Sequence record: ON528729
DNA from: Shigella phage ESh19
DNA: 64,000 nucleotides
Strand: one strand, 5' to 3'
The position numbers were made by a program, and so were the translations under genes. Below, piece after piece: positions 44,805 through 44,900 of this stretch. The notes below the pieces were generated by a model, which saw only the letters and a program-made list of their open reading frames with translations, was not told the DNA's origin and did no database searches. The first letter of the stretch is position 1. Each line of letters opens with the position of its first letter.

Positions 44805-44900
44805 TTTGAAAGAGGTCTGAAGCTGTGCCGCTAACTCAACTCCGTGGAATTTGTTACGGTCTTCAGTTGACTCAAGCGGTCTTTCACTTGACCTCAAAAT

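What the first reader, a model, noticed from the sequence alone, without database searches (positions are those of the whole stretch)
44805..44900. tRNA-sized element with acceptor-like stem but no T-loop between tRNA-Val and tRNA-Thr
GAGGTC (44812-44817) and GACCTC (44890-44895) form a 6-bp terminal stem enclosing about 72 nt that contain nested hairpins (TCAACT...AGTTGA, CCGT...ACGG) but no TTCGA T-loop. It is consistent with a tRNA-like or Y-RNA-like small RNA or a degenerate tRNA.
Basis: seen in the sequence. Interest (0 to 1): 0.5.

Follow-up and report, generated by a model that had tools for sequence, protein, structure and literature searches.

The report
Conserved rod-shaped RNA in phage tRNA operon
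Between two tRNA genes of a FelixO1-like phage lies an ~85-nt hairpin-shaped non-coding RNA gene that is not a tRNA, is conserved better than the tRNAs around it, and sits 3 kb downstream of a phage Ro60-like protein gene, so it may be an unusual partner RNA of that protein, although it lacks the motifs that define known Y RNAs.

Summary
Window 44812-44895 (minus strand, the tRNA strand) folds into an 84-nt rod closed by GAGGUC/GACCUC. ARAGORN and Rfam (including the tRNA, Y_RNA and YrlA models) find nothing there. It is not a decayed tRNA. About 250 Ounavirinae genomes, 6 Avunavirus genomes and 19 metagenome contigs carry it. Diversity is 0.04 inside the outer stem and 0.32 in the immediate flanks. 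A 27-nt apical core (GAAGA bulge plus AACAAAUUCC loop) is nearly invariant. Two stem pairs show compensatory changes with G-U intermediates, and wobble changes fit only the minus strand. A plus-strand micro-ORF, an rRNA mimic and antisense targets were tested and rejected. The distant relative phiEa21-4 has tRNA-Thr and tRNA-Val 7 nt apart and no element.

New context: the 471-aa ORF directly upstream of the array has a Ro60 fold (top nine PDB matches). phiEa21-4 lacks both this gene and the element. Av-05 keeps the element without it. The element lacks the Y-RNA motifs GNCGAA/CGAA and tRNA-like arms. Better Y-like candidates, four ACAGCAA hairpin units, lie closer to the Ro-like gene.

Best reading: a new small RNA excised from the tRNA precursor and acting in trans. 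Ro60-like partnership is possible (about 0.3). The closest precedent is T4 RNAC/RNAD.

The parts
44812..44895 (-). The element proper: an 84-nt rod-shaped RNA running from outer-stem strand to outer-stem strand. It has four supported helices (S1, S3, S5, S6) plus a lineage-specific S2.
   Evidence: MFE fold. RNAalifold consensus on 50 copies. CM R1 scores 109-121 bits in Ounavirinae, 79.5 bits in L294 and 55-63 bits in Avunavirus. Diversity is 0.04 inside versus 0.32 in the flanks.
44890..44895 (-). S1, 5' strand (GAGGUC on the RNA). It pairs with 44812-44817.
   Evidence: Pair 8-88 changes GC to UA in Avunavirus, with a G-U intermediate in L296.
44812..44817 (-). S1, 3' strand (GACCUC on the RNA).
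44845..44871 (-). Near-invariant 27-nt apical core, GUCAACUGAAGACCGUAACAAAUUCCA. It contains the 5' strand of S5, the GAAGA bulge (44860-44864), the 5' strand of S6 and the 10-nt apical loop AACAAAUUCC (44846-44855).
   Evidence: Identical between the window and Av-05. Identical in 25 of 27 Ounavirinae copies collected with anchors outside the core; the exceptions are L039 and L374. Bulge and loop diversity is 0.000 in alignment A5.
44805..44811 (-). Variable 3' tail (UUUCAAA). It ends at the RNase P site that creates the 5' end of tRNA-Val.
   Evidence: Flank diversity 0.32. tRNA-Val begins at 44804. RNase P cleavage is inferred.
44896..44900 (-). Variable A/U-rich 5' leader (AUUUU) immediately after the encoded CCA of tRNA-Thr.
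   Evidence: Cleavage 1-3 nt after CCA by RNase E is the E. coli model (abstract of PMC2190699); here it is inferred.
44901..44976 (-). tRNA-Thr(UGU), the upstream neighbour in the transcript.
44730..44804 (-). tRNA-Val(UAC), the downstream neighbour in the transcript.
47910..47939 (-). Sigma-70-like promoter (TTGACA-18-TATAGT with TG) upstream of the first tRNA. It is the likely start of the transcript that contains the element.
   Evidence: consensus match only
48048..49463 (-). Ro60-like protein gene (471 aa, DUF2828 + DUF7788, DVSSSM MIDAS-like motif), about 3.15 kb upstream of the element on the same strand. It is a candidate protein partner.
   Evidence: Pfam. Homologues annotated 'Ro-like RNA binding protein'. 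AF2 pLDDT 88.4 and pTM 0.88. The top nine PDB matches are all Ro60.
46862..47721 (-). Zone holding four paralogous hairpin-bounded ACAGCAA units: A 47635-47721, B 47475-47557, C1 about 46998-47072, C2 about 46862-46985. They share CAGAAGACCGU...ACGG and AACAAAUU with the element and are its probable evolutionary source. They are better Y-like RNA candidates than the element.

Best explanation
The element is a gene for a small non-coding RNA of a previously undescribed family. SHOWN: it lies on the tRNA strand inside a densely packed tRNA array. It forms an 84-nt rod. Purifying selection acts on exactly the stem-to-stem segment and is strongest on an unpaired GAAGA bulge and an AACAAAUUCC apical loop. 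INFERRED: it is transcribed with the tRNAs from the promoter at about 47939-47910. The tRNA-maturation machinery releases it. RNase P cutting at the 5' end of tRNA-Val makes its 3' end. RNase E cutting in the AUUUU leader after the CCA of tRNA-Thr, followed by trimming, makes its 5' end. The terminal helix then protects it from exonucleases. INFERRED: it acts in trans as a two-module RNA. The invariant apical module is read sequence-specifically by a conserved partner. The basal helix region (S1, S2 and the internal loop) is a docking or stability module. The leading candidate for a basal-module partner is the phage Ro60-like protein encoded 3.15 kb upstream, which would make it a Y-RNA-type adaptor that could bring Ro60-like protein to a host factor such as PNPase. 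I put that specific partnership at about 0.3 and Ro-independent action at about the same. The confidence given is for 'excised, trans-acting small RNA', whichever partner it has.
For: Not a tRNA or any known family. Strand and context: all 25 tRNAs and all real ORFs nearby are on the minus strand, other tRNA spacers are 1-9 nt, and a promoter lies upstream of the first tRNA. Conservation: 253 of 259 phage records cover at least 80% of a 146-nt query at 90-99% identity. Stem-to-stem diversity is 0.022, the lowest in the sub-array. Diversity is 0.04 inside and 0.32 in the 12 flanking columns. The neighbouring protein phrog_14202 falls to 40-49% aa identity within Felixounavirus and 32% to Av-05. 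The core stays near-invariant when copies are collected with anchors outside it. Structure: 96.4% of cells are paired. Two compensatory pairs have G-U intermediates (8-88 GC/GU/UA and 24-72 GC/GU/AU). The covariation score is 0.059 against 0.047 in shuffles, reached by 3 of 500. Every clade-level one-sided change is G-U on the minus strand and would be A-C on the plus strand. Gain or loss as a unit: phiEa21-4 has the same Gly-(Trp)-Thr-Val-Leu-Arg-Gln order with Thr and Val 7 nt apart and no copy. Precedent: T4 RNAD and RNAC lie directly 3' of tRNA-Arg in the tRNA unit and are stable small RNAs of unknown role. Ro60 link: Ro60 fold; same strand within 4 kb, as for bacterial and phage Y RNAs; both gene and element present in the window, Alf5 and L294 and both absent in phiEa21-4; phage Ro60 binds phage-encoded Y-like RNAs and host PNPase; abundant unannotated RNAs lie beside tRNAs and an Rsr-like gene in a Listeria phage. 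In Av-05, which lacks the Ro-like gene, the basal third is about 66% identical and the apical part (CCGC to GCGG) about 92% (alignment).
Against: No expression or end-mapping data exist for any carrier phage in the searched literature. Covariation rests on two pairs and closely related sequences; the counts of pairs with a change on both sides and of further pair types do not exceed shuffles. The Avunavirus copy probably arrived by fairly recent exchange, because the adjacent DUF7338 protein is 78-82% identical to the Felixounavirus one; the two lineages are therefore not deep independent witnesses. No partner was identified. There was no antisense target in the window, no homologue or long complement in 5,426 E. 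coli genomes and no rRNA relation. Against Ro partnership specifically: no GNCGAAN0-1G, GGUCCGA or CGAA; no Y_RNA or YrlA hit; no ACAGCAA motif, which marks the units next to Ro-like genes in three phage groups; and Av-05 keeps the element without any Ro-like gene.
Confidence: 0.5

Rival explanations
1. It is a bona fide Y RNA: a dedicated partner of the phage Ro60-like protein. Its basal helix binds the Ro ring and its invariant apical module tethers a host effector, as in a RYPER-like Ro60/Y RNA/PNPase machine. It differs from known Y RNAs only in being matured from a tRNA operon and in its binding motif.
For: The upstream ORF has a Ro60 fold. The element is 84-96 nt with a terminal stem formed by its 5' and 3' ends, and lies within 4 kb on the same strand as the Ro-like gene, matching the published criteria. 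Gene and element co-occur in Ounavirinae and are both absent in phiEa21-4. As in bacterial YrlA, the middle of the RNA is the most conserved part. The 5' strand GGUCAAGUG loosely resembles GGUCCGA/GNCGAA(N)G. The basal module is relaxed in the Ro-less Av-05. Homologous Ro-like proteins do sit beside Y RNAs.
Against: It has no GNCGAAN0-1G, GGUCCGA or CGAA motif. It gets no Y_RNA or YrlA hit at E<=10. It has no T or D arm and no large internal loop. It lacks the ACAGCAA motif that marks the units adjoining Ro-like genes in Listeria, Mycobacterium and enterobacterial phages. Four such units lie nearer to the Ro-like gene and are better candidates. Av-05 retains the element with no Ro-like gene. 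The 'within 4 kb' criterion is met by anything in the first part of the array.
Confidence: 0.3
2. It is a cis-acting processing or stability element of the polycistronic tRNA precursor. It could be an RNase III or RNase E entry site, an exonuclease barrier, or a folding insulator between the two halves of the array. Under this reading the excised product has no function of its own.
For: It is a long imperfect hairpin in the middle of a long tRNA transcript. The flanking A/U-rich single strands suit RNase E. In Av-05 it immediately precedes a protein-coding gene, where a 5' hairpin could stabilise the mRNA.
Against: All other tRNAs in the array are separated by 1-9 nt without such a device. phiEa21-4 joins the same two tRNAs with 7 nt. 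Processing sites need structure, not an invariant 10-nt loop and 5-nt bulge. The downstream context differs between lineages: a tRNA in Ounavirinae and a CDS in Avunavirus.
Confidence: 0.12
3. It is a plus-strand micro-ORF (44825-44929, GTG start, 34 aa, MPLTQLRGICYGLQLTQ...). Its conserved core peptide GICYGLQL mimics the nucleophile elbow of class I glutamine amidotransferases.
For: The ORF exists, and AAGAGG lies 9 nt upstream of its GTG. The 19-mer core recurs in 11 bacterial genomes, each time encoding GICYGLQ. Two rare variants that break the apical stem (L017, L039) are synonymous in this frame.
Against: The stop position and C-terminus are not conserved: length ranges from 24 to over 80 aa, running antisense through tRNA-Thr and tRNA-Gly. 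A 1-nt indel shifts the frame in several phages. The start codon differs in kind and position between lineages. There is no synonymous change over 9 codons between lineages whose neighbouring tRNAs are 66-89% identical. The lineage differences fall at second codon positions but are G-U-compatible in the RNA. Pfam gives no hit. The ORF is antisense to a tRNA operon and has no plus-strand promoter match nearby. The bacterial flanks are unrelated to the element.
Confidence: 0.03
4. It is a degenerate tRNA, or a neutral scar of an insertion, conserved only because the carrier phages are close relatives.
For: It is tRNA-sized and sits in a tRNA slot. The array lacks tRNA-Trp and an intact tRNA-Tyr. 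The carriers are closely related. The Avunavirus copy is probably a recent transfer.
Against: No cloverleaf can be drawn, and there is no T or D arm. Diversity inside is about eight times lower than in the 12 flanking columns of the same alignment and lower than in the adjacent tRNAs. Stem changes are compensatory or wobble-compatible. The adjacent protein genes have diverged to 32-49% identity.
Confidence: 0.03
5. It is a DNA-level site, such as a protein-binding inverted repeat, an origin or a recombination site, rather than an RNA.
For: It is an inverted repeat whose fold energy is as good on the plus strand (z -3.37). Sequence is conserved as well as structure.
Against: Clade-level changes give G-U pairs on the minus strand, which are A-C mismatches on the other strand and irrelevant to duplex DNA. 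The element lies inside a transcription unit of stable RNAs. The inverted-repeat arms are interrupted by asymmetric, invariant unpaired segments.
Confidence: 0.04

Closest known systems
Phage T4 RNAC and RNAD (species 1 and species 2 stable RNAs) of the T4 tRNA gene cluster
   Same: They are small stable non-tRNA RNAs of 139 and 119 nt encoded on the tRNA strand. RNAD lies 1 nt after tRNA-Arg and RNAC 6 nt further on, inside the tRNA transcription unit. Their biological role is unknown (PMC3014915). Position, size class and presumed release by tRNA processing match the element.
   Different: There is no homology: CM R1 scores 10 bits or less on T4 and JS10. RNAC contains a canonical T arm (CCGGGUUCGAAUCCCGG), and the element has none. 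The T4 RNAs sit at the end of the cluster, whereas the element lies between two tRNAs. T4 was not shown here to encode a Ro60-like protein.
Y RNAs of Ro60/Rsr proteins: bacterial and mycobacteriophage YrlA (Rfam RF02553) and Thermus phage phiLo Yrl1/Yrl2
   Same: They are 80-130 nt. Their 5' and 3' ends pair into a stem. They are encoded within about 4 kb of the Ro60 gene on the same strand. The middle of the RNA is the most conserved part (PMC4201824). Phage Ro60 binds phage-encoded Y-like RNAs (PMC12135203). The window encodes a protein with a Ro60 fold 3.15 kb upstream.
   Different: The element has no GNCGAAN0-1G or CGAA motif, no T- or D-arm mimic and no large internal loop, and gets no YrlA or Y_RNA model hit. 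It persists in Av-05 without a Ro-like gene. It is embedded between tRNAs rather than free-standing.
ACAGCAA hairpin units next to DUF2828-type Ro60-like genes (window copies A, B, C1, C2; also in Jobypre and Listeria phage LP-083-2), which resemble Dictyostelid Class I RNAs in design
   Same: They share the 11-mer C(A/U)GAAGACCGU with its partner ACGG, and AACAAAUU (copy A), with the element's apical hairpin. They lie in the same array, on the same strand, with the same phylogenetic distribution.
   Different: The element lacks the ACAGCAA motif and is not found by a search for it. It is wrapped in two further helices (S1 and S3) and is far more conserved in sequence. CM R1 finds no paralogue in the window.
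E. coli tRNA-spacer-derived regulatory RNAs (3'ETS-leuZ and internal spacers acting as sRNA sponges); cited from my own knowledge, not checked here
   Same: They are functional RNAs released from tRNA precursors by RNase E and RNase P.
   Different: Those act by base-pairing with Hfq-dependent sRNAs. No complementary partner could be tested for the element, because the host genome was not searchable for short seeds.

Membership tests
tRNA (including degenerate or pseudo-tRNA) | Cloverleaf with acceptor, D, anticodon and T arms that is detectable by tRNA models | tested here: not met
   ARAGORN makes no call. Rfam RF00005 gives no hit at gathering score or at E<=10. The MFE and the consensus fold are a single rod.
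tRNA (including degenerate or pseudo-tRNA) | T loop (GTTCRANYC) and an encoded 3' CCA, as in the other tRNAs of this array | tested here: not met
   There is no TTCGA/TCGAA in 44805-44900. The 3' tail is UUUCAAA, whereas the neighbouring tRNAs encode CCA.
Y RNA (generic, Ro60-bound) | 80-130 nt with a long stem formed by the 5' and 3' ends (PMC4201824) | tested here: met
   The element is 84 nt from stem to stem and 96 nt between the tRNAs. S1 (6-7 bp) closes the molecule and shows one compensatory pair.
Y RNA (generic, Ro60-bound) | Large internal loop | tested here: inconclusive
   Only moderate interruptions are present: a 6x4-nt internal loop, a 5-nt bulge and a small junction. The internal loop is larger in Av-05 (8x10 nt).
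Y RNA (generic, Ro60-bound) | Encoded within about 4 kb of a Ro60 orthologue on the same strand | tested here: met
   The Ro60-fold ORF 48048-49463(-) ends about 3.15 kb upstream. The distance is about 3.2 kb in Alf5 and 2.7 kb in L294. The criterion is weak here, because the whole front of the tRNA array satisfies it.
Y RNA (generic, Ro60-bound) | Ro60-binding motif on the 5' strand: GGUCCGA (animals), GNCGAAN0-1G (bacteria) or CGAA (phiLo) | tested here: not met
   A regex search of the element finds none of the three. The nearest resemblance is GGUCAAGUG.
Y RNA (generic, Ro60-bound) | Physical association with the Ro60 protein | not testable with these tools
   This needs RIP/CLIP or EMSA with the 48048-49463 protein.
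Y RNA (generic, Ro60-bound) | Strict co-occurrence with a Ro60 gene | tested here: inconclusive
   Both are present in the window, Alf5 and L294, and both are absent in phiEa21-4. The complete Av-05 genome has the element but no Ro-like gene.
YrlA subfamily (Rfam RF02553) | Near-invariant T-arm and D-arm mimics, detectable by the YrlA covariance model | tested here: not met
   No hit at E<=10 on 44700-45000. The same model finds a YrlA at 39.3 bits (E 2.8e-7) beside the homologous Ro-like gene of Jobypre.
T4 RNAC/RNAD-type tRNA-operon small RNAs | Non-tRNA stable RNA encoded on the tRNA strand, contiguous with tRNAs in one transcription unit | tested here: met
   Gene arrangement compared with T4. 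Stability of the RNA itself was not tested.
T4 RNAC/RNAD-type tRNA-operon small RNAs | Sequence or structure homology to RNAC or RNAD | tested here: not met
   CM R1 with filters off scores 10 bits or less on the T4 and JS10 tRNA regions. The folds differ.
ACAGCAA hairpin units (Ro-like-associated; Class-I-RNA-like design) | ACAGCAA motif immediately 3' of the 5' strand of a 6-8-bp closing stem, in a unit of 50-130 nt | tested here: not met
   The motif search finds copies A, B, C1 and C2 but not the element. The element has GU-AACAAAUU where the units have GU-UUACAGCAAACA.

The most novel reading that the evidence does not exclude
The element is a new kind of Y RNA. It would be a Ro60-like-protein adaptor that is produced by tRNA-processing enzymes from inside a phage tRNA operon. 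It would dock to the Ro ring through its basal helix without the canonical GNCGAA motif. Its invariant GAAGA bulge and AACAAAUUCC loop would recruit a conserved host RNA-metabolism factor, for example PNPase or another exoribonuclease, to remodel host or phage RNA during infection. The apical module would keep a Ro-independent activity, which would explain its retention in Avunavirus.
Probability: 0.25. Interest if true: 0.75.

Novelty: new variant of a known kind. Interest (0 to 1): 0.55.

Why it matters
FelixO1-like phages (Felixounavirus, Mooglevirus) are widely used for Salmonella, E. coli and Shigella typing, biocontrol and therapy. Their annotations nevertheless leave this 96-nt slot blank, and the two papers on their tRNAs do not mention it. 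A non-coding RNA conserved better than the phage's own tRNAs implies a function that matters in every infection.

The roles of the only documented analogues, T4 RNAC and RNAD, have been unknown for decades. A second, unrelated family in the same genomic niche suggests that tRNA operons are a general launch pad for phage small RNAs.

The context found here is a Ro60-fold protein, a tRNA array and several small hairpin RNAs. The same arrangement recurs in Listeria phages and mycobacteriophages. It turns a vague idea (phage Y RNAs) into testable hypotheses: which of these RNAs bind the Ro-like protein, and what do they recruit?

Tried and rejected
1. Ordinary or relaxed tRNA, tmRNA, or any Rfam family. 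None was found.

2. Homologous RNA in bacteria. The 19-mer core hits 11 MAGs, but every hit is coding DNA for the glutamine-amidotransferase motif GICYGLQ with unrelated flanks. It is a codon coincidence.

3. Plus-strand micro-ORF. Rejected because of frame shifts, a non-conserved start and stop, and no Pfam hit.

4. Mimic of, or antisense to, the 16S rRNA 3' minor domain (UGAAGUCGUAACAAGG). The local alignment score was no better than shuffles: 220 of 300 shuffles scored at least as high. 23S and 5S gave the same result.

5. Antisense target in the 64-kb window. Nothing exceeded chance. The single 12-mer at 21719-21730 lies on the non-coding strand of a minus-strand ORF, so the mRNA there is sense to the element, not complementary.

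6. Homologue or long complement in 5,426 E. coli genomes. None was found. Short seeds cannot be detected at that database size.

7. A third lineage. Two 14-mer scans, a degenerate scan and a metagenome scan, screened with CM R1, yielded only Ounavirinae-like and Avunavirus copies.

8. Homology to T4 RNAC/RNAD or the JS10 RNAD homologue. None.

9. A conserved pseudoknot between the 5' internal loop (UGAAAGA) and the 3' tail (UCUUUCA). It is possible in the window but is not conserved, because the tail is the most variable part.

10. Intrinsic terminator or sigma-70 promoter inside the element. The scan found none.

11. phrog_14202 as a co-distributed protein partner. It is syntenic in both lineages but was detected in only 75 records and evolves fast.

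12. Invariance of the loop and bulge as an ascertainment artefact of the search patterns. Checked with flank-anchored scans and rejected.
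Full report
**What is in the sequence**

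The window is a FelixO1-like myovirus of the subfamily Ounavirinae. It is closest to the Mooglevirus phages Sf16, Sf14 and ESh20, at 97-99% identity over the region. ARAGORN finds 25 tRNA genes between 42795 and 47882, all on the minus strand and mostly 1-9 nt apart. The flagged stretch, 44805-44900, is a 96-nt gap between tRNA-Thr (44901-44976, CCA encoded) and tRNA-Val (44730-44804).

No tool calls a tRNA or any Rfam family in the gap, even at E<=10. Because the genes are on the minus strand, the RNA of interest is 5'-AUUUUGAGGUCAAGUGAAAGACCGCUUGAGUCAACUGAAGACCGUAACAAAUUCCACGGAGUUGAGUUAGCGGCACAGCUUCAGACCUCUUUCAAA-3'. It folds into one long imperfect hairpin (-30.3 kcal/mol, z -2.7). Deposited annotations leave the gap empty.

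**Is it more than chance?**

The fold energy alone is only moderately unusual. Conservation settles the question.

- A 146-nt query centred on the element finds 259 phage records. Of these, 253 cover at least 80% of the query, at 90-99% identity.
- In an alignment of the sub-array from 22 Ounavirinae, the stem-to-stem segment has the lowest pairwise diversity of any feature: 0.022, against 0.028-0.16 for the well-aligned tRNAs.
- In the final alignment of 50 copies (27 distinct), the 12 columns just outside the outer stem have diversity 0.32. The 85 columns inside have about 0.04. The GAAGA bulge and the AACAAAUUCC apical loop have 0.000.
- Most copies had been collected with patterns containing that bulge and loop, so I repeated the collection with anchors outside the core. 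This recovered the same set plus one copy with a single loop substitution. That leaves 25 of 27 copies with an identical 27-nt core.
- Neighbouring protein genes show how much time has passed. phrog_14202 is only 40-49% identical within Felixounavirus.

**Structure and strand**

A covariance model built on the rod aligns all copies. RNAalifold keeps four helices: S1, S3 (CCGC/GCGG), S5 (UCAACU/AGUUGA) and S6 (CCGU/ACGG).

- Two pairs show compensatory change, each with its G-U intermediate. Pair 8-88 is GC in Ounavirinae, GU in L296 and UA in Avunavirus. Pair 24-72 is GC, GU in L363 and AU in L281/L282.
- All one-sided changes shared by a clade give G-U on the minus strand and would be A-C on the plus strand. 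The three changes of the opposite kind are singletons.
- Overall covariation statistics are modest. The score is 0.059 against 0.047 in shuffles, reached by 3 of 500 shuffles, and the counts of covarying pairs do not exceed shuffles. The sequences are very similar to one another.

I therefore regard the minus-strand RNA structure as supported but not proven.

**Distribution and origin**

The same element occurs in Avunavirus (Vequintavirinae): phage Av-05 and five relatives. There it lies directly 3' of tRNA-Gly(UCC) and is followed by a phrog_14202 gene, a DUF7338 gene and tRNA-Gln. The window has the same order, with extra tRNAs inserted.

Between the two lineages the element is 80% identical, and its 27-nt core 100%. 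tRNA-Gly is 89% identical, most other shared tRNAs 66-70%, and the phrog_14202 gene 58% at nucleotide level and 32% at amino-acid level. However, DUF7338 is 78-82% identical to its Felixounavirus homologue at the same array position. The module was therefore probably exchanged fairly recently, and I do not count the two lineages as deep independent witnesses.

The distant Ounavirinae member phiEa21-4 has the same tRNA order, but tRNA-Thr and tRNA-Val are 7 nt apart and there is no copy. So the element was gained on the enterobacterial branch, or lost in Kolesnikvirus, as a unit. The metagenome scan added 19 copies, including a divergent 81-kb Ounavirinae-like contig (L294, 79.5 bits) with the same Thr-element-Val synteny. 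No third lineage was found.

**Alternatives examined**

The core 19-mer occurs in 11 bacterial genomes, but always as the codons for GICYGLQ of glutamine amidotransferases, with unrelated flanks. This exposed a plus-strand ORF in the phage (44825-44929). It fails as a gene:
- Its stop and C-terminus vary from 24 to over 80 aa.
- A 1-nt indel shifts the frame in several phages.
- The start differs between lineages.
- There is no synonymous variation across the core.
- Pfam finds nothing.

A resemblance to the 16S rRNA 3' minor domain is no better than chance. No antisense target exists in the window, and E. coli genomes hold no homologue. The scan found no promoter or terminator inside the element.

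**The Ro60 connection**

The 471-aa ORF immediately upstream of the array (48048-49463, minus strand) matches DUF2828 and DUF7788. Its mycobacteriophage homologues are annotated 'Ro-like RNA binding protein'. An AlphaFold model built from 33 homologues has pLDDT 88 and pTM 0.88. Its top nine PDB matches are all full-length Ro60 structures: Thermus phage phiLo, Xenopus, human and Deinococcus Rsr, with E 2.5e-8 to 2.5e-6 and TM up to 0.65.

Published criteria describe Y RNAs as follows (PMC4201824):
- 80-130 nt;
- a stem formed by the 5' and 3' ends;
- a large internal loop;
- a gene within about 4 kb of the Ro60 gene, on the same strand;
- a 5' GNCGAAN0-1G or GGUCCGA motif;
- for YrlA, T- and D-arm mimics.

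A phage Ro60 has been shown to bind phage-encoded Y-like RNAs and host PNPase (PMC12135203). In a Listeria phage, abundant unannotated transcripts beside the tRNAs and an Rsr-like gene were proposed to be Y RNAs (PMC12282133).

The element meets the size, terminal-stem and distance/strand criteria. Gene and element are both present in the window, Alf5 and L294, and both absent in phiEa21-4. It fails the motif tests and gets no YrlA or Y_RNA hit. The YrlA model does detect a Y RNA right after the homologous gene of mycobacteriophage Jobypre. The complete Av-05 genome has no Ro-like gene by tblastn or by profile search, while the positive controls score 685-723 bits. In Av-05 the basal third of the rod has diverged to about 66% identity, while the apical part is about 92% identical. 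That pattern fits a two-module RNA whose basal part depends on the Ro-like protein, but it is an inference.

**A related family in the same array**

Four hairpin-bounded units lie between the Ro-like gene and the element: A 47635-47721, B 47475-47557, C1 about 46998-47072 and C2 about 46862-46985. They share the design [closing stem 5' strand]-UUACAGCAA-...-[closing stem 3' strand], and the stems covary between copies. C2 encloses a genuine-looking T arm preceded by GGCGAAGG.

Units of the same design adjoin the Ro-like gene, on the same strand, in Jobypre and in Listeria phage LP-083-2. In each phage there are two or three short units (51-68 nt) and one long unit (108-128 nt), and the long unit in Jobypre is the YrlA hit. 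These are better Y-RNA candidates than the flagged element.

The element shares C(A/U)GAAGACCGU...ACGG and AACAAAUU with them but lacks ACAGCAA. It looks like a derivative of such a unit that lost the motif and was wrapped in two extra helices.

**Mechanism proposed**

Shown: position, strand, fold, selection pattern and context.

Inferred from the E. coli tRNA-processing model (RNase E cutting 1-3 nt after CCA, RNase P making tRNA 5' ends; abstract of PMC2190699): the RNA is released as an 85-95-nt species whose terminal helix protects it.

Inferred from the invariant unpaired bulge and loop: it acts in trans on a conserved partner.

The closest documented precedent is T4 RNAD/RNAC. These are contiguous with tRNA-Arg in the T4 tRNA unit and are still of unknown role. 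They are analogous to the element, not homologous.

My estimates are 0.5 for an excised trans-acting small RNA, of which about 0.3 is a partnership with the Ro60-like protein; 0.12 for a purely cis-acting processing element; and a few per cent each for the ORF, degenerate-tRNA and DNA-site readings.

**Novelty and verdict**

Neither Rfam nor the searched literature describes this RNA, including the Felix O1 genome paper and a 2025 paper on the tRNAs of the near-identical phage Sf14. It is a new RNA family in a known genomic niche, with an unexpected and testable link to a phage Ro60-like protein. Interest is moderate to good (0.55). The side observation on ACAGCAA units may prove the more far-reaching one.

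Noticed in passing
window 48048-49463 (-): A 471-aa ORF directly upstream of the tRNA array has a Ro60 (TROVE + vWA) fold. It matches Pfam DUF2828 + DUF7788, its AF2 model has pLDDT 88, and its top nine PDB matches are all Ro60. Homologues occur in 703 phage records: Felixounavirus, KVP40-like Vibrio phages, and Campylobacter, Listeria, Staphylococcus, Enterococcus, Bacillus and Mycobacterium phages.
   Followed up: yes
window 46862-47721 (-): A 47635-47721, B 47475-47557, C1 ~46998-47072, C2 ~46862-46985: Four paralogous hairpin-bounded units have ACAGCAA immediately 3' of the 5' strand of a covarying 7-bp closing stem (AGACCGU/ACGGUCU or AGRCCAA/UUGGUCU) plus an outer 4-bp stem. A and B exactly fill tRNA-sized gaps. 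Units of the same design, three per phage, adjoin the Ro60-like gene of mycobacteriophage Jobypre (L381 5466-5721) and Listeria phage LP-083-2 (L382 about 5610-5890). They are likely the Y-like RNAs of this Ro-like protein family.
   Followed up: partly
window 47488-47546 and 47647-47709 (-): Copies B and A hit the Rfam model of Dictyostelid Class I RNAs weakly (25.7 and 19.7 bits, below the gathering score). Class I RNAs are defined by a 6-bp terminal stem and an 11-nt motif next to its 5' strand, and are reported to be unique to Dictyostelia (PMC7919456). The phage units have the same design, and Pfam DUF2828 includes eukaryotic members. The Listeria and Jobypre units did not reach E<=0.5 with that model.
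   Followed up: partly
window 46862-46985 (-), including 46903-46977: Unit C2 encloses a canonical-looking T arm (GAAGGUUCGAAUCCUUC) preceded by GGCGAAGG, which fits the bacterial Ro-binding motif GNCGAAG. Rfam calls 46903-46977 a borderline tRNA (29.6 bits); ARAGORN does not call it. It is a candidate YrlA-type RNA about 1.1 kb downstream of the Ro-like gene.
   Followed up: partly
window 47235-47397 (-): The 163-nt gap between tRNA-Asn and tRNA-Asp holds a disrupted tRNA-Tyr-like sequence (anticodon loop CUGUAAA, T arm GGUUCGACUCC, ACCA end; Rfam tRNA 22.8 bits at 47246-47326). It corresponds to the 'Pseudo (Tyr)' of the Felix O1 paper. The divergent contig L294 has an intact tRNA-Tyr in this slot.
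   Followed up: partly
window 46150-46457 (-): Sub-threshold Rfam hits to permuted tmRNA (34.1 bits, E 1.3e-4, 46270-46457) and to tmRNA (16.3 bits, 46150-46347). The first overlaps tRNA-Ile (46397-46471); both otherwise fall in the 247-nt gap between tRNA-Ile and tRNA-Arg(UCU).
   Followed up: no
window 44422-44634 (-): A small ORF (70 aa, phrog_10765, Cys-rich CGCC motif plus a basic tail) has a good RBS in relatives, and its 3' end overlaps tRNA-Arg(ACG) by about 50 nt. Felixounaviruses carry DUF7338 instead at this array position.
   Followed up: partly
L003 1667-1815 (Av-05, minus strand): The unannotated 149-nt gap between tRNA-Tyr and tRNA-Gly contains a very stable hairpin followed by a tRNA-like molecule (acceptor GGGAGUG/CACUCCC + ACCA, non-canonical T loop GGCAGAG) that ARAGORN does not call. 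The fold is -50.4 kcal/mol, z -3.0.
   Followed up: partly
window 44846-44866 and loci L040-L050: The element's 19-21-nt core is identical to the coding sequence for the glutamine-amidotransferase active-site motif GICYGLQ in 11 bacterial MAGs from at least 8 phyla. It was judged a codon coincidence.
   Followed up: yes
L382 4423-4974 and 8809-12521 (Listeria phage LP-083-2): A ROOL RNA hit (87.4 bits, E 1e-16, just under the gathering score) lies within the phage tRNA region. Genes for an RtcB-like ligase and an RNA ligase follow the Ro-like gene, echoing the Salmonella rsr-yrlBA-rtcBA RNA-repair operon.
   Followed up: no
window 45306-45558 (-) versus L002 1225-1677: Relatives such as Michonne carry an HNH homing endonuclease gene in the gap after tRNA-Leu(UAG), and the window does not. 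The tRNA array is a hotspot for insertions.
   Followed up: no
L274 22565-22654 (phiEa21-4): An unannotated 90-nt gap between tRNA-Met and tRNA-Tyr contains a tRNA-Asn-like sequence (anticodon loop CUGUUAA, T arm GUGGGUUCGAGUCCCAC) that is missing from the record's annotation.
   Followed up: no
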